The position numbers and the translations under genes were made by a program. Of a DNA stretch of 64,000 bases, positions 19,946 to 53,126 are shown piece by piece. Source of the stretch: an uncultured Eubacteriales bacterium. GTDB lineage: Bacteria; Acidobacteriota; Aminicenantia; Aminicenantales; Aminicenantaceae. The stretch is taken from positions 69 to 64,068 of the forward strand of contig CAYPGQ010000012.1 of assembly GCA_964410125.1 (NCBI GenBank), in the 5' to 3' direction. Position 1 is the first letter of the stretch; each line of letters begins with the position of its first letter. The notes under the pieces are model-generated. The model had not been told where the DNA came from and searched no databases. It was given only the letters and a program-made list of their open reading frames with translations.

Positions 19946-22900
19946 TCATCGCCAGTCGCCTGAGGCAACGAACCCAGCCCAGTAGAAAGGATGTGTGCTT
20001 TTTTTCTTTTTGCGCAGCTCATAGAGTATTTCCAGGGATGCTTTACAAACGGACTCGGCCGTTCCCAGACCTTCACTGAAGCGTGCTTTGTAGAGCTCAC
20101 GCATCCACATTTGGGCTGCTTCGTCTTCGATGGCCCATAGGCTTGTAATTAATGTCTTTGCTCCTGCCAACCGGAATGCCCTTCGGAGCCCGAAAACTCC
20201 TTCTCCAGCTCTGATTTTTCCGACTCCTGTGTCGCAAGCTGATAGAACAACCCAATTCACTCCAGAAAGGTTGAGCGTGGCGACTTCTTCTGCAGTTAGA
20301 ATTCCGTCCTCTTCCTCTGGACCGGCAGCTTCTCGGTGGTTGGCGCCTGCAAGCGCCAATCCTGACAAAAGAAGGGGATTCTCGCCCGTGATAGGTGGAA
20401 GTTTTCCTACACTCCAACTAGACTCCCATTTATTTTCCAAACGCGCTAAAGCCGATGGACAGTTGTTTTCGAGAAAAAAGCCGTGGGTAGCGAGATGCAA
20501 GATCTTTTTTCCAGGAGCGGCCATTTTGAATTCTCTCTCGTTTGCCATGGCCCCAGTCAGTTTTAAGATATCTCCTTCTCTCTCCTGACTTTTCTTCCAG
20601 ATAGGCGTAACCTCGTTTATCTCTTTGTGGGTTGCAGGAAGTGGCGTAAACTTCAGGGACTTAAAATCTCCGCATTCCGAACGCATTCCTCGGAAATGAA
20701 AAACGGATTTAACTTTGGCGAGCAATCCCTTTTCGGGCTTACTTTCAGGAGACAGGGCAGCGAATAACGATGTTTCGTCAAATGTTGGATCCCCCAGTGC
20801 CAATAATCCCTCTCCCTTAACTGTGGAATCTCTTGAGGATATAAGATCGCGCTCCGCAGACAGATAGTGGAGAAGAGGCCCTTTTTCGATCAAATATTCT
20901 TTCGATCCCACAGGGAGGGCAGCGAAGTTTATGGTATGCAGGGCGCCGGCCGGGACCAATAAAACACTCCTGGAATCTCCGAGATGGGGGGCAATCGGGT
21001 CCCACACTTTGCGGCGAAGAGCTTCTCCCGCGGCTCGGTAAGCCGCAACTGACTCCTTCTCCGAGCGCCCTGGGATCCTAGTTCCTCTAGCGGCCTCTTG
21101 GCCCCAATCAAAGATAAGAGGTTCGATTTCTTCCGCCTTTCCAAGGGGAACTACTGTGGGATTTCTATTTTGTGCTCGGAGGACAAACGCCAAATAATAA
21201 GGTAGCTGAACTGGCCCATGAGCCAGACCATTTTCTGTTTCAACTTCTTTTGAAGGAGGTTCATAATGAATGTAGCGAGCGAAGGCTACAAGAGCAAATC
21301 CAGGTGGAAGGGATGATTTGATCTCAATCAAGCCAGTCCTGCTTTGTTCAAATGTTTCCCTGTAAGTGACGCTGGCCATGGCGAGCGTACGCTCTGCCTG
21401 TTCTTTCTCGATTCTGGCTTTACCCAATTTGTTATGATAGTTCTTTTCCTGAGAAATAGAACCAGTGCCTCGGACAACGAGATTTGCGAGGTTTTGACGA
21501 GCCGAGTTGAAGGATTCTACCGAGGCTGAGACTTCTGGATCAGAGATTTCGGTAAGGGTGCGATGCCGTGCTGCCATTTCATCGTATATGATGGCGCGGG
21601 ATCGAATAAGCGAATCCCAAACCTTGCCGAGATTTGCCTCCATTCCCTTTTGGCCTTTCACAGCTAGAGAAAGACAGATGTCAAGGCCCTGGGATTTCAT
21701 CGCAGCATTTGCGAGTGCTCCACGTTCTGAGAGGAGTGAGGTCATAAGACGAAGATGGTCCCTTGCAATCTCTTCAGAGTGCAGGGCTTCTTTGAGTGCC
21801 GTTGCTAATTGACCGTCATACAAAAGATATTCGGCGAGTTCGCAACGTATTGATGCCCAGGAGGGGTGCTCTGGGTTGACAATTTTCTCCTCGATCGCAT
21901 GGGCACTTTTTATCTTGTTAAGTGCCTTTTTAACCTCTCCTTTGTTAATAAAAAGAGCGGCAAGATTTTGGAGAGCACGAACCATTACAATATCATTAAT
22001 GAGAGAACCAACAGTATTTGGCTCATCAGTACGTCGACTCTCCTCAAGGATCGGTAAAGCTCGTTGTTGAATCTCCAGCGCAATATCGTAATCGCCTAAC
22101 AGCCTGAGTATTTTGGAATAAGTATTAAGTGTGATAGCCGTTCTTGGAGCATTTGGTCCGTAATGCTGCTTTTCTAACTCAAGGATCCTTATGACACAAA
22201 CTTCTGCTTGTCTGTAATTGCCCATGTCAACGAGCGTTTTTGAGTAGTTGTTGTAGAAAGTAATCAGGCCTCTGAATTCTTTGCCCAATGTCTCCTCTAG
22301 GATCGCTATGCAGCGTTCGAAAAGCATTCGTGATCTTTCATGGTCACCGATTATACCGAGCGCGATTGCAAGTGGATTTAGAGAGTAAGCCATCGTCCAG
22401 TGATTTGTTCCATAGAATTTTTCTTTGATGGGCAAAGCAAGTTCGAGGTAATGTATCATTTTAGTCCAGTTGCCCACGCTCCCATACATATTAGCTACGT
22501 TTTCCAATTGAGAGGCGACCTCTGGATGCTCTGGGCCAAGTGTTTTCTCAAGTATGGATATAGTGCGTTCCCATAAGATCAGCACGTTGTCATCACATCC
22601 AAATAAGTCTATTGTTTTACCTCGCTCGATTAGAGCATCTTCATTCCATCCAGACAAAATATCTGCCACATCTATGTCTTCGGATTCAAGAGCCTTCTCT
22701 CGGATTTCCAGGGAGCGTTCTATATGTGTCCTGGCTTTATTTAGCTGTCCAATACTTCCAAAAAAAATCCCAATTCTATCATGGGTTTTGGCTATACTTA
22801 TATGATCTATGCCAAAAACCATCTCCTTGATTCTAAGCGATCTTTCCAAAATCTCGTTTGCCTTATCCAGCTCTTTTTCCCAATAGTATATAGTTCCTAA

Positions 22901-23521
22901 TTCATCCAGAATTTTAGCGATCTCAGCATGATTTGGACCATATGTCTTTTCAAATATCACTAGAGCACGCTCTGCTAGTGACTTTACAATAGAGTTATTC
23001 CAGTGTTTATCAATCAATCCAGAGAGGCTAGCCAAGCTCCTTACTACCTCGGGGTGCTCTGGTCCAAAGACTCGTTCTCTGATCGACATGGCCTGTTCGA
23101 TCAACATCTGCACCTCGTCTTCGGCTTGTTTTTGCTTGAGTTCAAAGGGTTCGAGGGAGGCATCCCGCTCTTTCTTTGATTTTCTCTTAGTCCATTCCCA
23201 ATACTCGTGATGGGTCTGTATTTTCCTGCGAAAAATGGATTCAACCAAAACATCGAGCACCTGGGCTGCCTGTAGTGAATCTACCCCAAAAGTAACTTCT
23301 ACCTCGGTGAGAATCTTTCGGGCTAATGTTTCAGCATCGGCGTAAATGCCATCTTTCAGCAGCGCTTTTACTTCATCCAGTATTTGAAGTGCTTGATCCT
23401 CCTTGGCCGACGGAGGCTGAGATATCTCTTGAGCTGCCAGACTGAAAATCACGATGAAAAGAATGAGTGACAGAGTTGTGACAAGCCTAATCATTAATTT
23501 GTGCTCGATTTTCCATCTCAT
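19946..23521 (-). CDS. Exported TPR-CHAT protein (caspase-like clan CD protease domain), paralog 1
   Basis: 1191 aa with an N-terminal signal or anchor (LVTTLSLILFIVIFSLAAQE). About 545 aa of TPR_10/12-like repeats follow (recurring EKxxGPxHPxxA pattern). The C-terminal CHAT region has ILHLATHGFF (His codon 20483-20485) and VVLSACDTGVG (Cys codon 20234-20236). Its start lies 11 nt after the stop of the upstream paralog. Confidence 0.88.
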   Translation of the reverse strand: MRWKIEHKLMIRLVTTLSLILFIVIFSLAAQEISQPPSAKEDQALQILDEVKALLKDGIYADAETLARKILTEVEVTFGVDSLQAAQVLDVLVESIFRRKIQTHHEYWEWTKRKSKKERDASLEPFELKQKQAEDEVQMLIEQAMSIRERVFGPEHPEVVRSLASLSGLIDKHWNNSIVKSLAERALVIFEKTYGPNHAEIAKILDELGTIYYWEKELDKANEILERSLRIKEMVFGIDHISIAKTHDRIGIFFGSIGQLNKARTHIERSLEIREKALESEDIDVADILSGWNEDALIERGKTIDLFGCDDNVLILWERTISILEKTLGPEHPEVASQLENVANMYGSVGNWTKMIHYLELALPIKEKFYGTNHWTMAYSLNPLAIALGIIGDHERSRMLFERCIAILEETLGKEFRGLITFYNNYSKTLVDMGNYRQAEVCVIRILELEKQHYGPNAPRTAITLNTYSKILRLLGDYDIALEIQQRALPILEESRRTDEPNTVGSLINDIVMVRALQNLAALFINKGEVKKALNKIKSAHAIEEKIVNPEHPSWASIRCELAEYLLYDGQLATALKEALHSEEIARDHLRLMTSLLSERGALANAAMKSQGLDICLSLAVKGQKGMEANLGKVWDSLIRSRAIIYDEMAARHRTLTEISDPEVSASVESFNSARQNLANLVVRGTGSISQEKNYHNKLGKARIEKEQAERTLAMASVTYRETFEQSRTGLIEIKSSLPPGFALVAFARYIHYEPPSKEVETENGLAHGPVQLPYYLAFVLRAQNRNPTVVPLGKAEEIEPLIFDWGQEAARGTRIPGRSEKESVAAYRAAGEALRRKVWDPIAPHLGDSRSVLLVPAGALHTINFAALPVGSKEYLIEKGPLLHYLSAERDLISSRDSTVKGEGLLALGDPTFDETSLFAALSPESKPEKGLLAKVKSVFHFRGMRSECGDFKSLKFTPLPATHKEINEVTPIWKKSQEREGDILKLTGAMANEREFKMAAPGKKILHLATHGFFLENNCPSALARLENKWESSWSVGKLPPITGENPLLLSGLALAGANHREAAGPEEEDGILTAEEVATLNLSGVNWVVLSACDTGVGKIRAGEGVFGLRRAFRLAGAKTLITSLWAIEDEAAQMWMRELYKARFSEGLGTAESVCKASLEILYELRKKKKSTHPFYWAGFVASGDWR

Positions 23522-23532
23522 TTGTCCTGTCT

Positions 23533-26500
23533 CTATCGCCAGTCACCAGAGGCAACGAATCCGGCCCAGTAGAAAGGATGAGTGCTTTTGCCCTTTTTGT
23601 GCAGTTCATGGAGTACTTCAAGGGATGCTTTACAAACAGACTCAGCTGTTCCTAGCCCTTCATTGAAGCGTGCAGTGTACAGCTCTTGCATCCATTTCCG
23701 TGCAGCCTCGTCCTCGATAGCCCACAGGCTTGTTATTAATGTCTTTGCTCCTGCGATCCGGAATGCCCGGCGGAGTCCTAATACCCCTTCGCCGGCCCTG
23801 ATTATTCCTACTCCAGTGTCGCAGGCAGAGAGTATTACCCAGTCAACCCGGGATAAGTCGAGAGCTGCTACCTCTTCGGCAGTCAGGATTCCGTCCTCCT
23901 CTTCATGTCCGGAGCTTTCACGGTGGTTGGCACCTGCCAGCGCCAGGCCAGACAGGAGCAGAGGATTCTCCCGGGTGGTGGGTGGAAGTTCTTCTGTTTT
24001 TTCTTGTTCAGACTCTGAATGCTCCTCCGAACGCTTTAATGCTGGTTGGCCATTTCCCTCTAGGAAGAAGCCGTGAGTAGCGAGGTGGAGGATTTGTTTG
24101 CCCGGAGCTGCCATTTTAAATGCCCTCTCGTCCGCTTTGTCGCCAAGAAGCATTAAATCCTCGCCTCTATAATCTTGACCTCTTTTCCAGATATCCGCGA
24201 TTTCTTTTATCTCCTTTTTGGTCTCTGGAAGGGGAGTAAATTCTAAAGATTTAAAGTCTCCGGAGCTGGAGCGGGTTCCCTTAAAGGGAAGTAGAGACGA
24301 GACCTTAGAGAGGAAGGACTGCTTGGGCTCGACTCCGGCGGAAAGAGCAGAAAAAAACGAGGTTTCATCAAAGGCCGGATCGCCAAGAGCTAGAAGTCCT
24401 GTTCCTCTGACTGGCGGTTTCCCAGAGGATATAAGGTCTCGTTCTGCCGATAGATAATGGATCATGGGGTCATTTTCGATTAAGTATTTTTCAGATCCCA
24501 CAGGTAGGGCGGCGAAATTAACGGTGTGAAGTACTCCATCAGGAACCACAAAGACACATCTGGTTTCCTTAAGATGAATGGCTATCGGATCCCATATTTT
24601 CTGGCGGAGAGTTTCTCCTGCGGCCCGGTAAACGGAAACTGCTTCTTTCGCAGATCGCCCTTGAATTCTTATTCCCCTGGCGGCTTCCTGGCCCCAATCG
24701 AAGATAAGGGGTTCGATTTCTTCAGCCTTTCCCAGGGGAACGATCACAGGTTTTTCTTCTTGAGCCCGGAGAATAAAGGCTAAATAGGCTTGGCCCTGTA
24801 AAAGATCCCGGAACTGAACACTTTTATCTTTCAGGTCTTTTGGAGGAAGATCGTAGTGAATGTAGCGGGCGAAGGAAACAAGAGCGAATCCTGGAGTAAG
24901 GGATGTTTTAATCTCATCAAAACCAGCCCTCTCTCGAACTATCTCATCCCTGAAGATTATACTGGCTTCAGCCAGTGCCAGCTCTGCCTGTTCTTTTTCG
25001 CTTCTGGCCTTGGTGATAAGTCCACTGTAGTTTTCTTTTGAAGCCGTAGGGCCGGGGCCGCGGACTATGAGGTCTGAGAGTTGCTTGCGCGCTGAGGTGA
25101 GGGTTTGGAATAAAACATAGATTTCAGGATCTGCGGCTTCAGAAACAGTTCGATTCCGCATCATCATTTCGTCCAGAACAAGACCACGGGATCGAATGAA
25201 TGCATCCCAGGCTTTGCCTCCAGCTCCTTTGATTTCATCCTGGACTTGTACACCCGTGGAGAGGATCATGTCGAGGCTGCGGGCTTTTGTCGTATCATAG
25301 GAGAGTGCTTGGCGTCCCGAAGCTGATGTGAAATACTGCCGCAGATGGTTCCTCGCGATCTCTTCAGAACGAAAGGCATTCTTGATTGCTTCGGAGATCA
25401 GCCCATTACTCCATAGGTTCTCGACGTAATCGTTCAATACCCAGGTCATCGTGATATTGTCTGGGCCATGGGATTTCTCCCTGATCGCCAGGGCACGTTC
25501 TATCAGGGCGAGTCCCTTTTTGCCCTCTCCTTTATCGCAATAGAGGGCAGCAAGTTTCCTCAAAGGATTAACCATACGAGTGTCAGGACTCTGGTTTTCC
25601 TCCAAAATCTTTATGGCATGTTGAATAAAATCTATTGCCTCATCTATTTTTCCTTTGTGTCTCAGTATTGAGGCGGAGATGGATAGAGGAGGCACTGATT
25701 CTAGAGTACCCGGCCCGTAATATTCCTCCCATTTTTTCATAACTCGTTGGACATAAACTTCTGCTCGGGAATAATCTTTCATTTCGAGGAACATGCCTGC
25801 GAGGCTCCAGAGGTATCGGTCGAGTTCTGTTGATTCTGATCCATAAATTTCCCCTAGAATTGTGAAGCAGCGCTCGTATTGTAGTATTGATCTTTCATAA
25901 TCTCCTGATAACCGATACAAGAGTGCAAGGTTGTAAACATACCAGACCATTTTTTCGCTCTTTGGCCCATGGAATTTTTCGGCTAATACCTTTGCCCGTA
26001 TCAGGTATGGGCTTGCCTGAGAGTAGTTCCCAATATCCAAATGCTGTCTCCCTATTTCGACCAGGTGAGGTGCAATGTCTGGATGCTCTGGGCCGAGTGT
26101 TTTTTCCAATATGAACAAGGACCGTTCGTAAAGGGCAAACCATTCATCAATAGCGCTCATTTCAGAAGCTACTTTGCGCAGGATATCTAAAGAGCTCAAC
26201 ACTGCCTGGGAGTCGTAATTGGGGGCATTTTCCTTTAATGCCAGAGCACGTTCTAAAAAAGATTTGGCTTCAGTTAGTTCTCCGGTGTTATGTAGAATTT
26301 GTCCGATTATAACCAGGGGAACCACAAGGTTTTGGTCTTCGAGCCCGTGGATAGCTTCAATCTCACTGAGAACCTCTCGGGCTATGGTTTCGGCTTCGGT
26401 ATAATTTTTATCCTTCAATAGAGCTTTTGCTTTCTCAAGTTTCTGGAGTGTCTGATCTTCATCAGAGGTGGATGTTTCAAATTTTTCTTGAACTCCCAAA

Positions 26501-26580
26501 CTGAAAGTCACTATTAATAGAAAAATCGATACGGTTATGGAAAATTTAAAGGTTGATCTATTCTTGATTTCCCCTCTCAT
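23533..26580 (-). CDS. Exported TPR-CHAT protein (caspase-like protease domain), paralog 2
   Basis: 1015 aa with an AGGAGG RBS and a signal or anchor (FSITVSIFLLIVTFSLGVQE). About 370 aa of TPR-like repeats are followed by a CHAT region with ILHLATHGFF and VILSACDTGVG. The C-terminus THPFYWAGFVASGDWR is identical to that of paralog 1. Confidence 0.88.
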   Translation of the reverse strand: MRGEIKNRSTFKFSITVSIFLLIVTFSLGVQEKFETSTSDEDQTLQKLEKAKALLKDKNYTEAETIAREVLSEIEAIHGLEDQNLVVPLVIIGQILHNTGELTEAKSFLERALALKENAPNYDSQAVLSSLDILRKVASEMSAIDEWFALYERSLFILEKTLGPEHPDIAPHLVEIGRQHLDIGNYSQASPYLIRAKVLAEKFHGPKSEKMVWYVYNLALLYRLSGDYERSILQYERCFTILGEIYGSESTELDRYLWSLAGMFLEMKDYSRAEVYVQRVMKKWEEYYGPGTLESVPPLSISASILRHKGKIDEAIDFIQHAIKILEENQSPDTRMVNPLRKLAALYCDKGEGKKGLALIERALAIREKSHGPDNITMTWVLNDYVENLWSNGLISEAIKNAFRSEEIARNHLRQYFTSASGRQALSYDTTKARSLDMILSTGVQVQDEIKGAGGKAWDAFIRSRGLVLDEMMMRNRTVSEAADPEIYVLFQTLTSARKQLSDLIVRGPGPTASKENYSGLITKARSEKEQAELALAEASIIFRDEIVRERAGFDEIKTSLTPGFALVSFARYIHYDLPPKDLKDKSVQFRDLLQGQAYLAFILRAQEEKPVIVPLGKAEEIEPLIFDWGQEAARGIRIQGRSAKEAVSVYRAAGETLRQKIWDPIAIHLKETRCVFVVPDGVLHTVNFAALPVGSEKYLIENDPMIHYLSAERDLISSGKPPVRGTGLLALGDPAFDETSFFSALSAGVEPKQSFLSKVSSLLPFKGTRSSSGDFKSLEFTPLPETKKEIKEIADIWKRGQDYRGEDLMLLGDKADERAFKMAAPGKQILHLATHGFFLEGNGQPALKRSEEHSESEQEKTEELPPTTRENPLLLSGLALAGANHRESSGHEEEDGILTAEEVAALDLSRVDWVILSACDTGVGIIRAGEGVLGLRRAFRIAGAKTLITSLWAIEDEAARKWMQELYTARFNEGLGTAESVCKASLEVLHELHKKGKSTHPFYWAGFVASGDWR

Positions 26581-26700
26581 TACTTGCCTCCTAAAGAGAA
26601 TCCTGGAGCCGATGCTCTCCCCAAAAGCATTACAAATTATCAGGCATTAAGTATTATTGCTGGAAAAAATACCATATTAATACTTTTTTTTGTGTTTATT

Positions 26701-27324
26701 TCATCTTCTAATCCGAAAACGGATCAATTGAGACTTTAAGCGTTCTCCCTGCGATAAAGCCTCGACCTGCCACATATAAATCTGTCCTGGGATGAGGGAC
26801 TTACGTACGGATTCAGGCAGAATAGCAGTATCTCCCTTTACAGATCTCTCCCACACGAGATCGCCCGCTTCGGTGTAAAGCTTGGCCTCATATGAGTCGA
26901 TTCCTGAAATTGGTTTCCACCGGAGTTCACTGGGAGCAGTCACTTCTCCCACAGGTGAAACGATCAGGATTGAAACATCGTCATGGCCTCTAAGCCGCTC
27001 GGTTTTTTTCCATGGGCCTTGGAGCCACACAAAAACAAGGGCAATAATCATAACAGTTAGTACACTTGCTGCTGCAAAGGCCCATTTCTTTCGAAAAAAT
27101 CGGATAGGCGCTGTGTTTTTGACATCATGAAGTTTGACTTTTTGGGAAGGAGCCAGTTTTTCTTCTCTTATCAAGTTCGTGATGGGAGCAGCTTCATAGA
27201 GACTCTGAAAACAGTATTCGCACTCGAGTAGATGATTCTCGAACTGCCGTTTTTCCTCATCAGACAGAAGGCCGAGTTCGTAGCTGCCGAGAAGCTTTCC
27301 GATGTCCTGGTCAGTGCAGCTCAT
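26701..27324 (-). CDS. Anti-sigma factor (zf-HC2 type), single-pass membrane protein
   Basis: HLLECEYCFQSL is a zf-HC2-like motif near the N-terminus. There is one TM segment (WAFAAASVLTVMIIALVFVWL) and an extracytoplasmic domain of about 100 aa. The start overlaps the sigma gene stop as ATGA. Confidence 0.8.
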   Translation of the reverse strand: MSCTDQDIGKLLGSYELGLLSDEEKRQFENHLLECEYCFQSLYEAAPITNLIREEKLAPSQKVKLHDVKNTAPIRFFRKKWAFAAASVLTVMIIALVFVWLQGPWKKTERLRGHDDVSILIVSPVGEVTAPSELRWKPISGIDSYEAKLYTEAGDLVWERSVKGDTAILPESVRKSLIPGQIYMWQVEALSQGERLKSQLIRFRIRR

Positions 27325-27914
27325 ATCTCCACTCCAAATTTAGCCCTTAAAATTCTCATCAGGCTCTGACGAGCACGATAGATACGTGTGTAGACTGTTG
27401 CCATCGGGATGTCCCCAAGTTCTCTCTGGATTTCCTCCCTTGTTAGTCCCTCCTGGAGGAACTTTAGGACCTTGCCCCATGTGCCATTCTCGGCTGCGCA
27501 TATTTCTATGGCATCCCGGAGGATTCTTCCCAATTCCTTTTCCTCGAGACAGAATTCCGGGGTTTCGGGAGCAGGATTCTTGAGAGAATTCAAAACCTTT
27601 GGCCCAGAGACATGGGTTTCTGTTTTCAATTTAGTCCGGCGATAGGTGTCACCCAGTTTGTTCCTGAGGATTTGGAAAATGAAGGGCATGAGATGATCGG
27701 GATTTCGAACCGAAGTTCTTTTTTCCCAAAGGGTGCTCAATGTCTGTTGAACGACATCCTCCACTTCTTCCCTCTGTAATCTTTTTTGTGAGAGGCGGAC
27801 AATTTTTTTCCGAATCGAGCTGAAGGCTTCGCCGAAGGAATCAAGATCACCTGTCTGCAGCAGGGTATAGAGTTTTTCGATTGATGTTTTTTGCTCTTTG
27901 CTCCCTGTTTCCAA
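27321..27914 (-). CDS. ECF-type sigma-70 family sigma factor
   Basis: 197 aa with a TTG start (there is no early in-frame ATG). A region-2-like segment is VVQQTLSTLWEKR...LMPFIFQILRNKLGDTYRR. A region-4 HTH is REEIQRELGDIPMATVYTRIYRARQSL. Confidence 0.85.
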   Translation of the reverse strand: METGSKEQKTSIEKLYTLLQTGDLDSFGEAFSSIRKKIVRLSQKRLQREEVEDVVQQTLSTLWEKRTSVRNPDHLMPFIFQILRNKLGDTYRRTKLKTETHVSGPKVLNSLKNPAPETPEFCLEEKELGRILRDAIEICAAENGTWGKVLKFLQEGLTREEIQRELGDIPMATVYTRIYRARQSLMRILRAKFGVEI

Positions 27915-27928
27915 TATCCCTGCTTTTT

Positions 27929-27948
27929 GCCGACGTTATGCTGTCGGC
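27929..27948 (-). other. Hairpin in the 5' leader of the ECF sigma gene
   Basis: GCCGAC-N8-GTCGGC (6-bp stem) lies between the promoter and the RBS. T-runs flank it on the + strand, so it looks like a terminator only for the strand that has no gene here. Confidence 0.4.
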
Positions 27949-27973: not shown

Positions 27974-28001
27974 ATTATACATTTTCAATCAATCTTGTCA
28001 A
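27974..28001 (-). promoter_or_regulatory. Canonical sigma-70 promoter for the ECF/anti-sigma/CHAT operon
   Basis: On the minus strand the sequence reads TTGACA (28001-27996), a 16-nt spacer, then TATAAT (27979-27974). It lies 60 nt upstream of the TTG start at 27914. Confidence 0.6.
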
Positions 28002-28070: not shown

Positions 28071-29051
28071 CTATAATTTTGTCCTTATGAATAAAACCTC
28101 GAATTTAATATCCATGGAACCCTGCGAGGAAAAGATGGCATCGTATGTTACACCCTTTTTTTTCTTGTTGTATTGCATCTCAACACAAATATTATACCAG
28201 TCAGTGGCCCATGCATCATCTCCAATCCCTTGCCCAATGGTATAATCATAAAAAGGATTTTTTTCCATTCCAACGACAACTTTCCAAATATCCATATTTT
28301 CATAATCTTCCTGAATTCTTTCGAAATATCCATAGTCGCTGAGTTCGCCGTCGCTACCACCAAATTGAATAAAACTGTATTCAAAAAGGCCTAAATCTTC
28401 GCATGTAACGGGTTTGAATGCTAATGGCGCTGGACCTGAAATATTTGTGAGAAAATCCAGATATCCATGATAATTATTCGACCATTGTTCGAAATGGACT
28501 TCCTCTTGGATAGCTGAGCGATCTGTGTAAAACCTGAAATATACTTTGTCATAGCTTGGATGAGGATGATAGGATTCTCGCATGAAATAAAACATACTGT
28601 TAGGATCATCTTCAATATATCCTCCAGGGTAAATACACATTGCATTCGGCGTATTATCGTAAAAATGAGCGCCATGAGGAATGAAGTCAAAATCGATCTG
28701 AATAGGATTAAATACCTCAAAAGAAAAACGTGTCTGATAGTTACCATCAAACGGGAAGTGGCGAGTCTCGACCTCAACATTGACATTTGGCTCTGAGTCA
28801 TCATAAACCCAACCTAACCAATTTTCATCGTATCGATCAGGATCGCCTGCTGTGCCTTTAAGTCCCAATCCTGCCCCATCCAGTATGACTACACTCCATA
28901 CGTATTTTCCGCCTTTATCCTGACCTGGTGGTTTGTCCGGTTTGCCTAATGTTTTTACTTGGCCTTGAACAAAGTCAAGACCAACAAAAACAAAGGCAAA
29001 TGCGAGAATGACCACCAATCCAAAAAGTTTTAAACCATGGAATTTTTTCAT
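28071..29051 (-). CDS. Exported protein of unknown function
   Basis: 326 aa with a GGAG RBS and a signal or anchor (LFGLVVILAFAFVFVGL). It is rich in aromatic and acidic residues. I recognise no motif. Confidence 0.7.
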   Translation of the reverse strand: MKKFHGLKLFGLVVILAFAFVFVGLDFVQGQVKTLGKPDKPPGQDKGGKYVWSVVILDGAGLGLKGTAGDPDRYDENWLGWVYDDSEPNVNVEVETRHFPFDGNYQTRFSFEVFNPIQIDFDFIPHGAHFYDNTPNAMCIYPGGYIEDDPNSMFYFMRESYHPHPSYDKVYFRFYTDRSAIQEEVHFEQWSNNYHGYLDFLTNISGPAPLAFKPVTCEDLGLFEYSFIQFGGSDGELSDYGYFERIQEDYENMDIWKVVVGMEKNPFYDYTIGQGIGDDAWATDWYNICVEMQYNKKKKGVTYDAIFSSQGSMDIKFEVLFIRTKL

Positions 29052-29081
29052 AATGCTCTCCTTATTAAAAATTTTTCCCTT

Positions 29082-30944
29082 CTACCATACACAGATTACC
29101 ATTTCATCGTATGTAGACGGATATCCTGACTTGGAGGCCCATACCCTTATGAGGTAATCCCCTGTCCCGTCAGGTTTCTTTGTTTTAAACCTAAATTCGG
29201 CCACACCTTCCCCGTTGGTCGTTTCGTCGCGCAAGTAATATCTACCGGAAGCGGCATTCAATTCTACATGAATATCAGCACCAGGAACTGTCATGCCATC
29301 TGCATCCAAAACCCTCACTTGAACGTTGATGGTATCGCCAACCGTATAGCAGTCATCGGGAGGGATTTTGACGTTTTCAATAAGGACTAATAAGGATCCT
29401 GTACGCTCAACGACCCAAAAAGTTTCATCATCAATTCCAGTTAGATTTCGTGTATCAGTTACAGTTACCTCAGCCCGATATAATATTTCCGAATATTCTC
29501 CTGTTGCCAGGCCTTCAAATAAAAGTTCTCCGGTGTAAGTCCCTGCTGTTCCGGTTTCGATGAATGCCACGGGTCTGTAAATTGGAGTTTGACCAGGATC
29601 ATCCATATCGTAAAGATTGGTCTCAAAGGCAGTCGGAGGCAGGAAAGATATAGGATTGCCATTCTGATCGCTGACTACTGCAGTCAGGACAGCTATTTCA
29701 TCTATGTCATATCCATATTTATCCCGGCTCAGTTCAAAATTGACTGCTGGTTCCGGAGGTGCGACTGCTTTTTCTGCATCCACCATGCCATTGCCTTGCT
29801 GTTCTTCTGAGAGATTATACTCGTTATCCAACCATTCCGCTGTCCTGTTGAGTTGGTATCTCACTGCAGAGCCACTGATGTAATATCCGGTTGCCCAGGC
29901 CAGTGCTGCTACCCCTGCGACGTGCGGACAGGCCATAGAAGTTCCATCCATGAAGGTATAGCCGCCGTTTCTATAAGTGGAGTAAATGTCTACCCCAGGG
30001 GCAGTAAGTTCGACTGAAGGGCCATCGCTGCTGAATTCGGCAATATTATTGTATTGATCAATGGCTGACACAGCGACGACAGATGGGTGATCAGCGGGAG
30101 AGGTAACACCACCGCCCCAATTGTTCCCAGCCGCAGATACAAGGAGGAGCCCTGCAGCATAGGCCGCGTCACATGCATCTGTGACACCTTCACCATACAT
30201 TCTAAGGCTTATGGATACTATCTCAGCATCATCCGGAGTACCCCGGATTCCATCGGGGCCATCAACCGCCCATTCCAGGCCTGCGATAAAATCGCTCGCC
30301 TTTCCTCTCCCTCTATTATCCAGCACTTTCACACCGTAGAGCCATGCGTCTGGTGCAACTCCAACTACACCAAAGCCGTTATCATCGGCGGCAACGATGC
30401 CAGCACAGTGTGAGCCATGACCGTGATCATCATCCCAGGCATCAGGATCAGTTCCCTTATTCTTGCCCTTCCCGGAGACAAAATTCACCCCGTCGACGAT
30501 ATTGGCTATCAGATCAGGATGGTCCTTGTTGATGCCAGTATCGATGATAACAACATGGATACCGGCACCCTTGTTGTAAGGAGAATAATTCCATACCATC
30601 TCTGCATCTATACGGTCGACACCCCAACTGTCTGATAACTCATCAGCAAGGAAGATATCGCCATCTTCCTCCACATAGGTAACATTCGGATTGTGTCTCA
30701 GCCCTTTGATTGCAGTCGAGGGGACAGATGCAGCGATGACCGGAATAAGGTGGTAGGCATATTTGATCTTCCCTCCAGTTTTCTCCACCTGAGCTTTTTC
30801 AGACTTGCCCGGAAATTTCTTGAAACCTATCAGGACGTCCTCATGGCCGACTCCTTGAGCTCGGGCGACATCCTCAGTAAAGATGCCAAGTGCTGAGATT
30901 GCAAACAGGAGAAATAAAGATGTCAACAAAAATTTCTTCCTCAT
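29082..30944 (-). CDS. Secreted subtilisin-like serine protease (peptidase S8) with propeptide and C-terminal Ig-like region
   Basis: The track start is 30992. ATG 30944 (MRKKFLLTSLF) follows AAGGAGG. The catalytic triad contexts are VVIIDTGI (Asp), HGHGSHCAGI (His) and GTSMACPHVAG (Ser). Confidence 0.9.
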   Translation of the reverse strand: MRKKFLLTSLFLLFAISALGIFTEDVARAQGVGHEDVLIGFKKFPGKSEKAQVEKTGGKIKYAYHLIPVIAASVPSTAIKGLRHNPNVTYVEEDGDIFLADELSDSWGVDRIDAEMVWNYSPYNKGAGIHVVIIDTGINKDHPDLIANIVDGVNFVSGKGKNKGTDPDAWDDDHGHGSHCAGIVAADDNGFGVVGVAPDAWLYGVKVLDNRGRGKASDFIAGLEWAVDGPDGIRGTPDDAEIVSISLRMYGEGVTDACDAAYAAGLLLVSAAGNNWGGGVTSPADHPSVVAVSAIDQYNNIAEFSSDGPSVELTAPGVDIYSTYRNGGYTFMDGTSMACPHVAGVAALAWATGYYISGSAVRYQLNRTAEWLDNEYNLSEEQQGNGMVDAEKAVAPPEPAVNFELSRDKYGYDIDEIAVLTAVVSDQNGNPISFLPPTAFETNLYDMDDPGQTPIYRPVAFIETGTAGTYTGELLFEGLATGEYSEILYRAEVTVTDTRNLTGIDDETFWVVERTGSLLVLIENVKIPPDDCYTVGDTINVQVRVLDADGMTVPGADIHVELNAASGRYYLRDETTNGEGVAEFRFKTKKPDGTGDYLIRVWASKSGYPSTYDEMVICVW

Positions 30945-31046
30945 ATTTTTTCCTCCTTCGAAAATGTGTAAAGGAATATAAATCTCCTTCACTTATATAT
31001 ATTGCTGCTGTGGCAATTTTCTTCCCGTTATGGACTCTTCAGACAA

Positions 31047-33215
31047 TCATTGGTTATGGGGGACAGTAACAGTAGCACTGACAGTGAAAGTGTTCCCTGC
31101 ATCATCTGTTGCTGTATAAGTTATTTGGTATACTCTACCATCTCCTCTTCCCGATCTTTCAGCTCTTAAGTAAATATTGCCGTCCTCATCAAACTGGATA
31201 TCATCAAAGGTATGTCCATCACCCTCCCATGAATCATAAGTAGGATCGTAAGTGTTCGTTTCCTCTCCTTCATTCATTATTATTGAACTCAACCTCACGT
31301 CCGGAGCAGGATCACAGTTATCACTGGCAACAATGGTTGGGGTAATAAGAACCATCTTATGATTTGGCGGCCATAAAATATTCGGACTGACAGTAACGCT
31401 TAGCAGAGGTGGAGTCACATCCTGAACGATTACGGTTTGAGTTTGAGTTATTGCGTTGCCATTTCCGTCATCATAAGTCCAAGTTACTGTGTGAGTGCCT
31501 TGTTCCCCATAAATAAGGAGATCAGAAGTTGTGCCTGATATAGTCCCTGCACAATTATCTGTTGCAGTTGGGGTTGATGTTATCTCTGCAAAACACTCAC
31601 CGGTTACTGTAGGCAACTCCAGTACATCAGGTATTGGAGGTATGCTATCAACTACGGTTACGACGGCTTGGCATGTGTCTGATTCTTCAGAATCATCTGT
31701 TACAGTTAGAGTTACATAATGTTCGCCTACAATAAACGGACCTGGGGGATCAATCGAAAGAGTAATGGGATCATCATCTGGATCGTATGATCCTCCATCG
31801 ACATCCGCTGCGGTTATGTTTGCCTCACAGCTTCCATCTACGGGAACTTCAATATCCTGACAGATGACAACAGGAGGCTGATTAACAATTTTGCATTTAC
31901 CCGCACTCCCTGCTTGATAGATGGCCTGGATTTCGCCTTCCGAAAGCGCTCTGTTAAAGATTCCAACCTCGTCGATAAGACCAGGAAAATACCACTGTGG
32001 ATTCGTGGCATAGAGGTTTTTAAAGGCCCCAATAAGCACAGGTGACTCAGAAATGTGGATTCCGTTTGGCCTGTACCTCGAAGCAACCTCATAACCATTT
32101 TTGTATAGCTTATTCGTACCTGTAAGCGAATCATATGTCATGGCTACATGACTCCAAGTATTGCTAGGAATTTTTCCACCTATGAGCCCGTGATCAGGAG
32201 TGTTGCCGTCGCCAATCCCGCCAATAATTTTAATAACTCCGCCTATTTTTTTTATGGAAATTACATAGGAATCCGTGGATACGGTCTGTGGCCATTTTGA
32301 CAAAATGGTTGAAACCTGTCCTTCTCCTATTTCTTGTGGATATATCCATGAATCGATTGTAATATCCTCTGAAATTTTTAGATTCATAGGATCGCCAACA
32401 AAGATATAATCATTAACACCATCGAGGCTGAAGGTTTGATCAACCATCCCATCAGCAAAGGTTGCTCCAGACATCTCCATCCCATGATTTTCACCAACGA
32501 TATCCTCTGCATTTCCATCCCCAGGCCACCAGCTTACCATGTCAGTCGGTGGGGGAATACACTCCACTTCATAGCCCATGCCATTCAAGCCATTTACGTA
32601 ATGCTGCAGGATTTCTGTTGGTGTAAGAGTCCTGTCATATATTGCTACTTCGTCGATAAGCCCATTGAAATACTCATGATAGGGGGGGCCGCCGATATAC
32701 AAAATTTCTGTGGGTGTTAAACCTCCCATTGTGCTAGGTATTTCTAAAACACCATCGATGTAAACACCTACACCATCAACTATAGCAACATGATGCCAAC
32801 TATTTAGTATAATGGGAGAACCGAATGCGCTTTGACATCTTTCCCAATATCCTCGATGGATGCCGAAGCATGCATGAGATAATTCACCTCGAAATACTTT
32901 TTGAGTTTTATTTTGTCTTACATATATCCAGCCTTCTAAACTCATCTGAGAAAAATCTATGCTCATAGCTGGTATCTCAACAAAATCATTAAATCCATCA
33001 AAACTCAAAGCCCCTCCAACCAAGCCGTTTGTCCTTGTTGGCCCGTTAATTAAAATTCCATGATTATCTCCAACTGAGTCATAAGCAATCACTCCTTCTG
33101 CCTCATCGAACTTCCAATAGGCAATCATTCCCCCAGGGTAGAACTGAGAAAATACAAAGGAAACAAAGACGATGCAGACGATTAGAAGCATTCCAAAAAA
33201 AAGTCTTTTTTTCAT
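31047..33215 (-). CDS. Secreted protein with two LamG-like (concanavalin-A-like) domains and HYR/Ig-like repeats
   Basis: 722 aa with a signal peptide. The LamG_3-type endings GLIDEVAIYDRTLTPTEILQHY and GLIDEVGIFNRALSEGEIQAIY are present. Cys-containing repeats then follow (PPVVICQDIEVP..., ATDNCAGTISG..., ASDNCDPAPDV). Confidence 0.8.
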   Translation of the reverse strand: MKKRLFFGMLLIVCIVFVSFVFSQFYPGGMIAYWKFDEAEGVIAYDSVGDNHGILINGPTRTNGLVGGALSFDGFNDFVEIPAMSIDFSQMSLEGWIYVRQNKTQKVFRGELSHACFGIHRGYWERCQSAFGSPIILNSWHHVAIVDGVGVYIDGVLEIPSTMGGLTPTEILYIGGPPYHEYFNGLIDEVAIYDRTLTPTEILQHYVNGLNGMGYEVECIPPPTDMVSWWPGDGNAEDIVGENHGMEMSGATFADGMVDQTFSLDGVNDYIFVGDPMNLKISEDITIDSWIYPQEIGEGQVSTILSKWPQTVSTDSYVISIKKIGGVIKIIGGIGDGNTPDHGLIGGKIPSNTWSHVAMTYDSLTGTNKLYKNGYEVASRYRPNGIHISESPVLIGAFKNLYATNPQWYFPGLIDEVGIFNRALSEGEIQAIYQAGSAGKCKIVNQPPVVICQDIEVPVDGSCEANITAADVDGGSYDPDDDPITLSIDPPGPFIVGEHYVTLTVTDDSEESDTCQAVVTVVDSIPPIPDVLELPTVTGECFAEITSTPTATDNCAGTISGTTSDLLIYGEQGTHTVTWTYDDGNGNAITQTQTVIVQDVTPPLLSVTVSPNILWPPNHKMVLITPTIVASDNCDPAPDVRLSSIIMNEGEETNTYDPTYDSWEGDGHTFDDIQFDEDGNIYLRAERSGRGDGRVYQITYTATDDAGNTFTVSATVTVPHNQ

Positions 33216-33452
33216 GTTTTTTCCCCTTTTAAAATTAAATTTTGAATCGCTGATAATTGAAGTTTTTCAAATCCAAGGCAGCACCTCCTTTCAATAGTGA
33301 AGCCCTCTTTCAATACAATTTATTGTTGGAGTTAGGATTTCCTTCCCAAAAAAATCAGATAAAAGAAAAGTTTTTTTAAATAAAGAGAAGGGGAGTGACG
33401 TTTGTGGGGAAATTTTATAGAATCTTGGCATGAGTTAGATGAAGGAGAGGAA

Positions 33453-48485: not shown

Positions 48486-48543
48486 ATTTGGGATGTAAAA
48501 ATCGGTCCTTAAAACGTATATAGGACTGGAAGCGAGAGATACG

Positions 48544-49626: not shown

Positions 49627-49672
49627 TGGAGAATGTCAGAATAATCCTTTCATAAAATGTTTTTCCTTAAAA

Positions 49673-49706
49673 GTGTGCAAAATCGAGGCACACGTTTGTA
49701 TGTTTC
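49673..49706 (+). terminator. Rho-independent terminator candidate
   Basis: GTGTGC (49673-49678), a 9-nt loop, then GCACAC (49688-49693). A T-rich tail GTTTGTATGTTT follows. Confidence 0.4.
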
Positions 49707-49753
49707 AGTAGGGATCATGAAGAAAACAGAAAAAATCCATCGTTGAGGAAAAA

Positions 49754-53108: not shown

Positions 53109-53126
53109 AACTGAAGGAGGTCTCAA

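What the first reader, a model, noticed from the sequence alone, without database searches (positions are those of the whole stretch)
19946..27914. ECF sigma / zf-HC2 anti-sigma operon whose cargo is two exported TPR-CHAT (caspase-like) proteases
Seen in the sequence:
- Four co-directional genes sit behind one canonical TTGACA-N16-TATAAT promoter (27974-28001).
- The sigma stop and anti-sigma start overlap as ATGA, and the two CHAT genes are only 11 nt apart.
- The anti-sigma has HLLECEYC, one TM segment and an external domain of about 100 aa.
- Both large proteins begin with a signal or anchor, carry long TPR arrays, and end in a CHAT domain with an intact His/Cys dyad (HLATHGFF and LSACDTG; His codon 20483-20485 and Cys codon 20234-20236 in paralog 1).

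Established knowledge: CHAT domains are clan CD caspase-like proteases, and ECF sigma factors are usually freed by regulated proteolysis of their anti-sigma.

Inference: exported, TPR-gated caspase-like proteases are genetically wired to an ECF switch. They could be the signal-sensing site-1 protease acting on the anti-sigma external domain, or the stress-induced output of the switch. I do not know of a characterised example, so this is my best candidate for an undescribed system. Two further modules in this window (47886-51940 and 52070-54122) repeat the logic of sigma, single-pass protein and exported protein.
Basis: partly seen in the sequence, partly recalled or inferred. Interest (0 to 1): 0.78.

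Follow-up and report, generated by a model that had tools for sequence, protein, structure and literature searches.

The report
ECF sigma switch with exported caspase-like proteases
A bacterium of the Aminicenantes group carries a conserved operon that joins a stress sigma factor and its membrane anti-sigma factor to two exported caspase-like (TPR-CHAT) proteases; it looks like a split version of a recently solved fused anti-sigma/protease (DdvA), and it is far more widespread.

Summary
Four co-directional genes sit behind a perfect TTGACA-N16-TATAAT promoter. They encode an ECF sigma, a zinc-finger single-pass anti-sigma with an FN3-like outer domain, and two TPR-CHAT proteins with N-terminal export signals and an invariant His/Cys pair.

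The linkage is not chance:
- All 12 independent loci that encode a relative of this anti-sigma carry an adjacent large gene. It is a confirmed TPR-CHAT gene in 11 and a contig-cut gene of at least 764 aa in the twelfth.
- Of 36 metagenome loci of the wider TPR-CHAT family that could be judged on both sides, 24 have an ECF-type sigma gene within 2.6 kb.

The claim that no characterised example exists is outdated:
- Myxococcus DdvA is an anti-sigma fused to a periplasmic TPR-CHAT.
- Craspase TPR-CHAT cleaves the inhibitor of an ECF sigma.
- The ECF54 group was reported with CHAT and subtilase neighbours.

A new result: a second, ECF-like promoter motif (GGGAAGAA-N14-CAATAAAT) marks the neighbouring secreted-protein genes but not the CHAT genes. 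This places the proteases on the sensing side in this lineage.

Most likely they act in trans as signal-gated site-1 proteases of the anti-sigma. That step is inferred, with confidence about 0.45.

Verdict: a new, widespread split variant of a known kind. Interest 0.6.

The parts
27974..28001 (-). Housekeeping-type promoter TTGACA-N16-TATAAT of the sigma operon
   Evidence: Matches 12 of 12 positions. The same two hexamers are conserved upstream of the sigma gene in L001, L002, L003, L005, L007 and L012.
27929..27948 (-). Stable hairpin in the predicted 5' leader of the sigma mRNA
   Evidence: The fold gives -16.5 kcal/mol with z = -4.5. The stem is kept with base changes on both sides in L001 and L012. 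Its function is unknown.
27321..27914 (-). ECF sigma factor, 197 aa, TTG start
   Evidence: Sigma70_r2 scores 24.8 bits. TIGR02937 scores 43.2 bits against a cut-off of 42.9. It aligns over its full length with SigW, SigH/SigE and RpoE structures.
26701..27324 (-). Single-pass anti-sigma: zinc-finger anti-sigma domain, one TM segment, FN3-like outer domain
   Evidence: - The zf-HC2 hit is.
- Cys3, His31, Cys35 and Cys38 are invariant in 19 homologs.
- It aligns with RslA, RsiW and the DdvA N-terminus.
- The TM segment lies at about residues 81-106.
- The outer domain matches fn3-type repeats of giant proteins.
26989..26991 (-). Arg112 codon of the invariant Arg112-Gly113 pair (ERLRGHDD), just outside the membrane; speculative cleavage site
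   Evidence: Arg112 and Gly113 are invariant and Leu111 nearly so. An (L/V)R(G/S) motif also occurs in 11 of the 12 unrelated TPR-type outer domains of other CHAT-linked anti-sigmas. This evidence is weak, with chance about 7% by my estimate.
26581..26700 (-). Gap of 120 nt between the anti-sigma and CHAT2 genes, with an AGGAGG ribosome-binding site
   Evidence: No terminator-like site is found on the - strand. The fold is not unusual, z = -1.2. Only a weak 9-of-12 promoter-like site is present. Relatives have gaps from an overlap up to 113 nt.
23533..26580 (-). TPR-CHAT paralog 2, 1015 aa, N-terminal signal or anchor, His836/Cys920
   Evidence: Pfam CHAT gives E 1.9e-60 with TPR arrays. It is 51% identical to paralog 1 over 978 aa. 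The hydrophobic N-terminus is shown.
19946..23521 (-). TPR-CHAT paralog 1, 1191 aa, N-terminal signal or anchor, His1013/Cys1096
   Evidence: Pfam CHAT gives E 1.8e-61. The AlphaFold model of residues 561-1191 has pLDDT 79 and pTM 0.82. Foldseek matches Csx29 at 2.5e-11, DdvA at 6.5e-9 and separases.
30983..31026 (-). Putative target promoter of the ECF sigma (GGGAAGAA-N14-CAATATAT) before the S8 subtilase gene
   Evidence: It scores 34.8 bits with a matrix trained only on sites from other loci. The next best site outside the cluster scores 11.5 bits in 64 kb on both strands.
33304..33347 (-). Second copy of the same motif before the LamG-domain protein gene
   Evidence: It scores 23.1 bits with the independent matrix.
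28071..33215 (-). Probable regulon: exported LamG protein (31047-33215), S8 subtilase (29082-30992, likely start at 30944) and an exported 326-aa protein of unknown fold (28071-29051)
   Evidence: - Pfam assignments are.
- The 326-aa protein is next to the sigma gene in every Aminicenantes locus with upstream sequence.
- Motif sites lie before these genes in all of those loci.

Best explanation
This is a three-part envelope signalling module made of an ECF sigma factor, its membrane-spanning zinc-finger anti-sigma factor, and two exported TPR-CHAT caspase-like proteases. The proteases are either periplasmic or tethered to the inner membrane. All four genes are co-transcribed from a strong housekeeping-type promoter.

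Proposed mechanism:
1. The long TPR arrays bind an external ligand, probably a protein.
2. Binding switches on the CHAT protease. It then clips the anti-sigma factor on its outer side, near or in the linker before the FN3-like domain. This makes CHAT a site-1 protease acting in trans.
3. Intramembrane and cytoplasmic proteases remove the rest of the anti-sigma factor.
4. The freed sigma factor activates promoters of the type GGGAAGAA-N14-CAATAAAT. These lie in front of the adjacent genes for a secreted LamG protein, an S8 subtilase and a 326-aa exported protein of unknown fold.

Shown here: the gene identities, the intact dyad, the fold, the conserved linkage, the export signals and the two promoter types.

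Inferred: that CHAT cleaves the anti-sigma factor, that the motif is read by this sigma factor, and the nature of the signal.
For: 1. Linkage. A large gene follows or adjoins the sigma/anti-sigma pair in all 12 independent loci with a relative of this anti-sigma. It is a confirmed TPR-CHAT gene in 11 loci: L001, L002, L003, L005, L007, L010, L012 and the window itself, the Glassbacteria locus L011 at 26% identity, and two distant relatives from 68-70% GC genomes. In the twelfth (P0243) it is a gene of at least 764 aa that is cut by the contig end and not confirmed as CHAT.

2. Breadth.
- Of 36 metagenome loci of the TPR-CHAT family evaluable on both sides, 24 have an ECF-type sigma gene within 2.6 kb.
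- Pfam confirms these sigma genes: 32 of 32 match region 4 and 29 of 32 match region 2.
- Thirteen loci show sigma -> HxxxCxxC single-pass anti-sigma -> TPR-CHAT.
- L093 shows the same order with independent gene calls.
- Architecture types cluster on the CHAT tree.

3. Fusion precedent. DdvA joins the same three parts (zinc-finger anti-sigma domain, TM helix, periplasmic TPR-CHAT) in one chain, and its CHAT was proposed to cut its own linker (PMC11506125). The model of CHAT1 matches DdvA (8rot_A, E 6.5e-9), Csx29 (E 2.5e-11) and separases.

4. Functional precedent. Csx29 TPR-CHAT cleaves Csx30 and thereby relieves inhibition of an ECF sigma (PMC10028731).

5. Catalytic pair. His and Cys are invariant in 40 family members.

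6. Export. Of 67 full-length family members, 62 have an N-terminal hydrophobic segment, against 3 of 35 sigma controls.

7. Promoters.
- The sigma operon keeps a consensus sigma-70-type promoter in all 7 Aminicenantes loci.
- A distinct bipartite motif with fixed spacing precedes the neighbouring secreted-protein genes and never the CHAT genes.
- This holds in an independent test.
Against: - No cleavage, binding or transcription was measured, so the direction of the relationship (input or output) rests on promoter patterns in one lineage.
- In high-GC relatives the sigma operon itself may carry an ECF-like promoter (GGAAC/GAAAC-N14-16-CAAxAAT, seen by eye). There CHAT would be induced together with sigma.
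- The TPR-CHAT family also pairs with sigma genes that have other partners, about 580-630-aa single-pass proteins. CHAT is therefore not tied to one kind of anti-sigma.
- The outer domain of the anti-sigma is not conserved between lineages: it is FN3-like here and TPR-like elsewhere.
- Read-through from the S8/326-aa transcript into the sigma operon cannot be excluded.
- Even for DdvA, CHAT cleavage is still only proposed.
- Signal-peptide predictors could not be run.
Confidence: 0.45

Rival explanations
1. The TPR-CHAT proteases are output effectors. They are co-induced with sigma by autoregulation or read-through and act on other envelope or foreign proteins, for example by processing the secreted S8 or 326-aa proteins or by degrading an invader's proteins. 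They do not act on the anti-sigma.
For: - Genes downstream of sigma/anti-sigma pairs are often regulon members (general knowledge of ECF systems; Casas-Pastor 2021, PMC7826278, notes that regulators and targets cannot be told apart from context alone).
- Possible ECF-like promoters lie upstream of sigma in high-GC relatives.
- No terminator separates the 326-aa gene from the sigma operon.
- The family also occurs with other sigma partners and, in 12 of 36 loci, with no sigma nearby.
Against: - In all 7 Aminicenantes loci the operon has a consensus housekeeping-type promoter, while the ECF-like motif sits only before the neighbouring genes.
- The DdvA fusion places TPR-CHAT in the sensor position of an anti-sigma (PMC11506125).
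- Architecture type co-varies with the CHAT clade.
Confidence: 0.25
2. TPR-CHAT is a co-sensor that regulates the anti-sigma without cutting it. It might bind the outer domain as a guard (like RseB on RseA) or as a ligand-dependent partner. In that case the dyad serves self-processing or cuts the ligand, not the anti-sigma.
For: - TPR arrays are protein-binding modules.
- In DdvA the bulky TPR-CHAT blocks RseP access until it is removed (PMC11506125).
- The outer domains of the partner anti-sigmas differ between lineages, which suits binding more than a fixed cleavage site.
Against: - His and Cys are invariant across the family, which argues for catalysis.
- Every characterised TPR-CHAT (separase, Csx29) works by cutting a partner protein.
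- A short (L/V)R(G/S) motif is shared by both outer-domain types, though this is weak evidence.
Confidence: 0.2
3. The adjacency has no functional meaning: a common TPR-CHAT gene simply lies next to a common ECF pair.
For: Both gene kinds are abundant in Acidobacteriota. At least 1842 relatives of the CHAT module were found, and this window alone holds 3 ECF sigma genes.
Against: - Linkage holds in 12 of 12 loci of the anti-sigma family, across sequences only 26% identical and genomes of 46-70% GC.
- Of 36 evaluable loci, 24 (67%) have a sigma gene within 2.6 kb.
- Intergenic distances are short or overlapping.
- A natural fusion exists (DdvA).
Confidence: 0.03

Closest known systems
DdvS/DdvA of Myxococcus xanthus (ECF sigma plus transmembrane anti-sigma with a periplasmic TPR-CHAT; PMC11506125, PMC6061681)
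   Same: - It has an ECF sigma and an N-terminal zinc-finger anti-sigma domain with a Cys-His-Cys-Cys pattern.
- It has a single TM helix and a TPR-CHAT of separase/craspase fold outside the membrane, with the His/Cys pair kept.
- Foldseek matches the CHAT1 model to DdvA 8rot_A at E 6.5e-9.
- The anti-sigma profile weakly aligns with the DdvA N-terminus 8rlz_A.
   Different: - Here the anti-sigma (207 aa, FN3-like outer domain) and the TPR-CHAT are separate genes, and there are two paralogous proteases.
- No CBASS or CRISPR genes are nearby, and PADLOC gives no hit for these proteins.
- The probable regulon is secreted proteins.
- There is no detectable sequence similarity of the CHAT domains to any solved structure, DdvA included.
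- The DdvA authors found fused forms only in Myxococcota and one Comamonas; the split form is widespread.
Craspase: Cas7-11 with Csx29 (TPR-CHAT), Csx30, Csx31 and CASP-sigma (PMC10028731)
   Same: A TPR-CHAT protease is genetically linked to an ECF sigma and its inhibitor, and cleavage of the inhibitor relieves sigma. Csx29 gives the best structural matches of the CHAT1 model (7xsr_C at E 2.5e-11, 8eex_B at 1.2e-10).
   Different: Craspase is cytoplasmic, RNA-guided and part of a type III-E CRISPR locus, and Csx30 is not a zinc-finger membrane anti-sigma. Here the protease has an export signal and no CRISPR genes are nearby.
Regulated intramembrane proteolysis of anti-sigma factors (RseA cut by DegS then RseP; RsiW cut by PrsW then RasP)
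   Same: These are single-pass anti-sigma factors whose outer part must be cut first by a signal-sensing site-1 protease. The anti-sigma here aligns with RsiW and RslA, and the sigma with SigW and RpoE.
   Different: The known site-1 proteases are serine or metallo enzymes and are usually not encoded in the sigma operon. Here the candidate is a clan CD cysteine protease with a TPR sensor array, encoded in the operon.
ECF54 group of Actinobacteria (Huang 2015 and Casas-Pastor 2021, as summarised in PMC8999054)
   Same: A conserved neighbourhood with CHAT, subtilase and carboxypeptidase-regulatory-like domain proteins, for which proteolytic control of sigma was proposed. The same three kinds of neighbour occur around the Aminicenantes module.
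   Different: ECF54 is described as lacking an anti-sigma and is actinobacterial. Here a zinc-finger anti-sigma is always present. Group membership of this sigma could not be tested, because no ECF Hub models were available and the Huang 2015 text is not held.
SAVED-CHAT / PCaspase cascade of a type III-B CRISPR locus (bioRxiv 10.1101/2023.06.23.546230)
   Same: A CHAT protease is linked to a sigma factor and a Ser/Thr kinase. A TPR Ser/Thr kinase also lies near this module (14921-18055, and in L002 and L003).
   Different: That system is cytoplasmic and activated by cyclic oligoadenylate through a SAVED domain, and the protease acts on another caspase.

Membership tests
ECF (group IV) sigma-70 factors | Regions 2 and 4 only, matched by curated ECF models | tested here: met
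   - TIGR02937 sigma70-ECF scores 43.2 bits against a cut-off of 42.9.
- Sigma70_r2 scores 24.8 bits against a cut-off of 24, but Sigma70_r4_2 scores 19.2 bits, below its cut-off of 25.7.
- The protein is 197 aa long and aligns end to end with SigW and RpoE structures.
ECF (group IV) sigma-70 factors | Assignment to a named ECF group such as ECF54 | not testable with these tools
   No ECF Hub group models are available. The supplement of PMC7826278 is not held and Huang 2015 is not held.
Zinc-binding class I anti-sigma factors (ZAS, Pfam zf-HC2) | N-terminal anti-sigma domain with H-x3-C-x2-C | tested here: met
   - zf-HC2 scores 27.6 bits against a cut-off of 22.2.
- His31, Cys35, Cys38 and Cys3 are invariant in 19 homologs.
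- It aligns with RslA (E 0.009), RsiW and DdvA.
Zinc-binding class I anti-sigma factors (ZAS, Pfam zf-HC2) | Binds and inhibits the co-encoded sigma | not testable with these tools
   Only translational coupling (the ATGA overlap) and conserved pairing speak for it.
CHAT domain proteases (Pfam PF12770, caspase-haemoglobinase fold) | Full-length match to the CHAT model | tested here: met
   E 1.8e-61 and 1.9e-60 over profile positions 2-289 of 289.
CHAT domain proteases (Pfam PF12770, caspase-haemoglobinase fold) | Catalytic His (followed by Gly) and Cys (preceded by Ala), each at the end of a beta strand | tested here: met
   - The motifs are HLATH-G and LSA-C.
- Both residues are invariant in 40 sequences.
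- In the model His453 and Cys536 of the 631-aa segment follow strands 445-451 and 530-533.
- A residue-by-residue superposition on a solved active site was not possible.
CHAT domain proteases (Pfam PF12770, caspase-haemoglobinase fold) | Separase/craspase-type helical scaffold plus CHAT fold | tested here: met
   Foldseek against the PDB finds Csx29, DdvA and separases as the top 23 hits, with E from 2.5e-11 to 1.8e-5.
CHAT domain proteases (Pfam PF12770, caspase-haemoglobinase fold) | Peptidase activity and substrate | not testable with these tools
   This needs biochemistry.
DdvA-type anti-sigma factors | Anti-sigma domain, TM helix and periplasmic TPR-CHAT in one polypeptide | tested here: not met
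   The genes are separate: the anti-sigma ends at 26701 and CHAT2 starts at 26580 with its own ribosome-binding site and signal sequence. No fused form was seen in 12 related loci.
DdvA-type anti-sigma factors | Controls a CBASS/CRISPR defence island | tested here: not met
   PADLOC gives no hit for the CHAT, sigma, anti-sigma, 326-aa or LamG proteins. The neighbours are subtilase, LamG, NHL and PD40 proteins.
Type III-E Craspase | TPR-CHAT (Csx29) encoded with Cas7-11, Csx30 and Csx31 and a CRISPR array | tested here: not met
   The ORF and Pfam survey of the neighbourhood shows no cas genes, and the protease has an export signal.

The most novel reading that the evidence does not exclude
Exported TPR-CHAT proteins may be a widespread class of periplasmic receptor-proteases. 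Their variable TPR arrays would recognise extracellular proteins. They would then cut a membrane anti-sigma, perhaps at the conserved Leu-Arg-Gly just outside the membrane, so that a caspase-like cleavage carries a signal across the inner membrane to an ECF sigma. Paralog pairs such as the two here could form heterodimers, as DdvA forms dimers, and so widen the range of ligands. This would be a general, CRISPR-independent bacterial counterpart of protease-gated transcription. It would give the still untested DdvA model a genetically separable test system.
Probability: 0.3. Interest if true: 0.75.

Novelty: new variant of a known kind. Interest (0 to 1): 0.6.

Why it matters
The idea that a caspase-like TPR-CHAT protease can serve as the first protease in anti-sigma degradation rests so far on one fused protein. 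In DdvA, protease and substrate cannot be separated genetically, and the trigger is unknown. Here the same parts are separate genes, and the arrangement recurs widely in Acidobacteriota-type metagenome loci and in Candidatus Glassbacteria.

That makes the hypothesis directly testable: mutate the protease without touching the anti-sigma. This work also supplies a candidate reporter promoter (GGGAAGAA-N14-CAATAAAT). The module would add a new class of site-1 protease to ECF signalling. It would also point to what these abundant, uncultured sediment and soil bacteria switch on in response, namely secreted subtilases and lectin-like proteins.

Tried and rejected
- Sequence searches of the CHAT domain against the PDB found nothing, either as a single sequence or as a 12-sequence profile. 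Full-length queries hit only TPR proteins such as kinesin light chain. Only fold comparison worked.
- The genome-contig scan with the anti-sigma profile returned only 4 loci because of its pattern step. The exhaustive profile search showed the family is much larger.
- The 326-aa neighbour has no Pfam, NCBIfam or PADLOC hit. Its confident model (pLDDT 82) has no significant PDB fold match; the best E is 0.03.
- The text of Huang 2015 (ECF54) and the supplement of Casas-Pastor 2021 are not held, so ECF group assignment was not possible.
- I considered a defence-island role as for DdvA. I rejected it for lack of any defence gene hits apart from generic kinase and subtilase matches.
- I considered an RNA element in the leader or the gaps. 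Rfam and tRNA scans were empty.
- The AT-rich promoter matrix finds nothing in the 65-70% GC relatives. ECF-like boxes seen there by eye were not tested statistically.
- One distant anti-sigma look-up landed on a 1.2-kb contig and was uninformative.
- The Leu-Arg-Gly cleavage-site idea rests on a 3-residue motif, which I rate as weak.

Full report
**1. What is there**

The region holds four co-directional genes on the minus strand:
- an ECF sigma factor (27321-27914, 197 aa, TTG start);
- an anti-sigma factor (26701-27324, 207 aa), whose ATG overlaps the sigma stop as ATGA;
- two large paralogs, CHAT2 (23533-26580, 1015 aa) and CHAT1 (19946-23521, 1191 aa), 11 nt apart.

Pfam gives CHAT at E 1.8e-61 and 1.9e-60 over the whole profile. 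It also gives long TPR_12/TPR_10 arrays, zf-HC2 for the anti-sigma, and Sigma70_r2 just above its cut-off for the sigma. NCBIfam's ECF superfamily model is just reached, 43.2 bits against 42.9. The sigma aligns end to end with the SigW, SigH/SigE and RpoE structures.

A perfect TTGACA-N16-TATAAT lies at 28001-27974.

Both residues are invariant in 18- and 40-sequence family alignments.

The anti-sigma has four features:
- invariant Cys3, His31, Cys35 and Cys38;
- one hydrophobic segment;
- an outer domain of about 100 aa;
- a match of that outer domain to fibronectin-III-like repeats, found by an exhaustive profile search in giant repeat proteins.

Names given to homologs place the organism in Candidatus Aminicenantes (Acidobacteriota).

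**2. Fold and catalytic site**

Sequence searches against solved structures found nothing for the CHAT part. An AlphaFold model of CHAT1 residues 561-1191 has pLDDT 79 and pTM 0.82. By Foldseek it matches:
- the Craspase TPR-CHAT Csx29, E 2.5e-11;
- the Myxococcus anti-sigma DdvA, E 6.5e-9;
- separases.

Together these fill the top 23 places. In the model the His follows a strand and precedes Gly, and the Cys follows a strand after Ala. This is the canonical arrangement of this protease clan (established knowledge of clan CD enzymes).

**3. Export**

Both paralogs start with a positively charged stretch and then 18-20 hydrophobic residues. These end in Ser-Leu-Ala or Ser-Leu-Gly. This fits a Sec signal, or an uncleaved N-terminal anchor given the long hydrophobic core.

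Across the family, 62 of 67 full-length members have such a segment, against 3 of 35 sigma factors used as controls. Many members show plain Ala-x-Ala sites. SignalP was not available.

**4. Is the linkage real?**

- *Starting from the anti-sigma.* A large gene follows or adjoins the sigma/anti-sigma pair in all 12 independent loci that encode a relative.
  - The loci are eight Aminicenantes loci including the window, one Candidatus Glassbacteria locus at 26% identity, and three distant relatives. Two of the three distant relatives come from 68-70% GC genomes.
  - The large gene is a confirmed TPR-CHAT gene in 11 of the 12 loci.
  - In the twelfth (P0243) it is a gene of at least 764 aa, 13 nt downstream. 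It is cut by the contig end and has no Pfam record.
- *Starting from the protease.* The C-terminal 631 aa has at least 1842 relatives.
  - In 80 metagenome loci, 36 could be judged on both sides.
  - Of these 36, 24 have an ECF-type sigma gene within 2.6 kb.
  - Pfam confirmed the sigma genes.
  - Thirteen loci show the same three-gene order with an HxxxCxxC single-pass anti-sigma.
  - An NCBI genome shows the same order with independent gene calls.
- *Other arrangements.* Two others recur:
  - CHAT -> sigma -> a single-pass protein of about 580-630 aa;
  - a divergent sigma with another protein gene (about 420-710 aa as ORFs) lying between it and CHAT.
- *Co-inheritance.* On a rough tree of CHAT C-termini the arrangements cluster. 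This suggests long co-inheritance of each protease clade with its regulator type.

**5. What is already known**

- DdvA of Myxococcus xanthus has a zinc-finger anti-sigma domain, a TM helix and a periplasmic TPR-CHAT with a His/Cys pair. Its authors propose signal-induced CHAT self-cleavage as the site-1 step before RseP. They report fused homologs only in Myxococcota and one Comamonas (PMC11506125).
- In type III-E CRISPR systems the TPR-CHAT Csx29 cleaves Csx30, which inhibits the ECF sigma CASP-sigma (PMC10028731).
- A review notes that ECF54 has conserved CHAT, subtilase and carboxypeptidase neighbours and that proteolytic control was proposed (PMC8999054). The same three kinds of neighbour surround the Aminicenantes module.
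- I found no paper that describes the split, exported, three-gene form.

**6. Input or output?**

The TTGACA/TATAAT promoter is conserved before the sigma gene in all seven Aminicenantes loci. In three of them a leader hairpin with compensatory changes follows it.

A different bipartite motif, GGGAAGAA-N14-CAATAAATAT, has fixed spacing in 12 of 12 sites. It lies 70-130 nt before the neighbouring genes for the LamG protein, the S8 subtilase, the 326-aa protein and NHL proteins. This holds whether those genes are co-directional with sigma or divergent from it.

A matrix trained only on sites from other loci was used as an independent test:
- the two window sites score 34.8 and 23.1 bits;
- the next best site in 64 kb scores 11.5 bits;
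- the best site in 20 shuffles scores 20.0 bits.

Three further sites that were not used for training appeared before genes of the same cluster. The motif has the layout of ECF promoters, a GGAAx box, a 16-nt spacer and a short -10 box (established knowledge). It never precedes a CHAT gene.

I therefore read the secreted proteins as the regulon and the CHAT proteins as part of the constitutively made sensing apparatus. Three caveats apply:
- The assignment of the motif to this sigma is inferred from adjacency.
- Read-through into the sigma operon is possible.
- In high-GC relatives an ECF-like box may precede sigma itself (seen by eye only).

**7. The 120-nt gap**

No terminator-like site is found on the coding strand, and the fold is unremarkable, z = -1.2. 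A strong AGGAGG precedes CHAT2. Relatives have gaps from an overlap up to 113 nt. Co-transcription is likely but unproven.

**8. Mechanism proposed**

A ligand binds the TPR array and the CHAT domain becomes active. CHAT then cuts the anti-sigma outside the membrane. Site-2 and cytoplasmic proteolysis follow, and the released sigma activates the adjacent secreted-protein genes.

A speculative detail concerns the cleavage site. Arg112-Gly113 just outside the membrane is invariant. An (L/V)R(G/S) motif recurs in 11 of the 12 unrelated TPR-type outer domains of other CHAT-linked anti-sigmas. The motif is short, and I estimate about 7% chance of such sharing. Known TPR-CHAT enzymes cut after Arg, Met or Leu (PMC11506125).

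The two paralogs differ mostly in their TPR arrays: about 27% identity at the N-terminus against about 70% in the CHAT part. This would suit different ligands or a heterodimer, but nothing here tests that.

**9. Verdict**

The mechanism is plausible by analogy and fusion, but it is inferred. The system is a new, widespread split variant of a known kind, not a categorically new system.

Noticed in passing
window 30983-31026(-) and 33304-33347(-); L001 7007 and 8131; L002 7545 and 9183; L003 8096 and 9195; L005 3781, 7969 and 9228; L007 3807, 6107 and 8156; L012 1297: A bipartite motif, GGGAAGAA-N14-CAATAAATAT(AAGTGAAGGA), with fixed spacing lies before the secreted-protein genes next to the sigma operon. 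It is highly specific, with only these two sites in the 64-kb window. It is probably the target promoter of the linked ECF sigma.
   Followed up: yes
window 28071-29051(-): An exported 326-aa protein lies next to the sigma gene in every Aminicenantes locus, often duplicated. Its 52 homologs share contigs with the anti-sigma family. It has no Pfam, NCBIfam or PADLOC hit. Its confident beta-rich model has no PDB fold match; the best E is 0.03.
   Followed up: partly
window 27929-27948: A stable hairpin (z = -4.5) lies in the predicted leader of the sigma mRNA. It is kept with compensatory changes in L001 and L012. On the + strand the scan lists it as terminator-like. Its function is unknown.
   Followed up: partly
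window 47886-51940 and 52070-54122: Two more ECF modules are present. One is sigma + single-pass DUF4384 protein (no zinc-finger motif) + exported S41 peptidase. The other is sigma + single-pass 164-aa protein + exported 331-aa protein with no family hit. The pairing of a sigma with an exported protease therefore recurs with a different protease class.
   Followed up: partly
window 14921-18055(+); also L002 3807-6327 and L003 2526-5045: A Ser/Thr kinase with an N-terminal zinc ribbon, one TM segment and an outer TPR array lies near the module here and in two relatives. The kinase hits to PADLOC models are generic.
   Followed up: no
L045, L070, L077, L082, L083, L085; L048, L055, L056, L071, L073, L086: Two other recurrent architectures of the same TPR-CHAT family were seen. 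In one, CHAT is followed by a sigma gene; in L070, L077, L083 and L085 a single-pass protein of about 580-630 aa follows, while L082 has a 321-aa zinc-finger anti-sigma instead and L045 ends too early to tell. In the other, a sigma plus a similar single-pass protein lies divergent from CHAT, with a gene for a protein bearing a WTVMVYM-type N-terminal motif (about 420-710 aa as ORFs; possibly another peptidase) in between. These partner proteins were not identified.
   Followed up: partly
window 26704-27006(-) (anti-sigma outer domain); P0234, P0239, P0248, P0265: The outer domain of the anti-sigma is homologous to an fn3-like repeat. That repeat is present in up to 29 copies in giant proteins of up to 5228 aa.
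   Followed up: partly
L018, L020, L021, L022, L031 (about 60-130 nt upstream of the sigma gene); L096 and L097: In high-GC relatives a box resembling GGAAC/GAAAC-N14-16-CAAxAAT, or GAAGGAA(C/T), lies upstream of the sigma gene. This hints at autoregulation and at a promoter specificity shared with the Aminicenantes motif. It was seen by eye only.
   Followed up: no
L001 9513, L002 9515, L003 9515, L005 9486 (inside the sigma coding region): Weak look-alikes of the promoter motif (12-19 bits) lie about 100 nt into the sigma gene in several relatives; the window copy scores below threshold. They probably reflect coding constraint, but an internal promoter is not excluded.
   Followed up: no
L001 10670-15856: In the complete Aminicenantes chromosome CP070750 the single TPR-CHAT gene encodes 1728 aa. 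It has an extra TPR region of about 680 aa instead of a second paralog.
   Followed up: no
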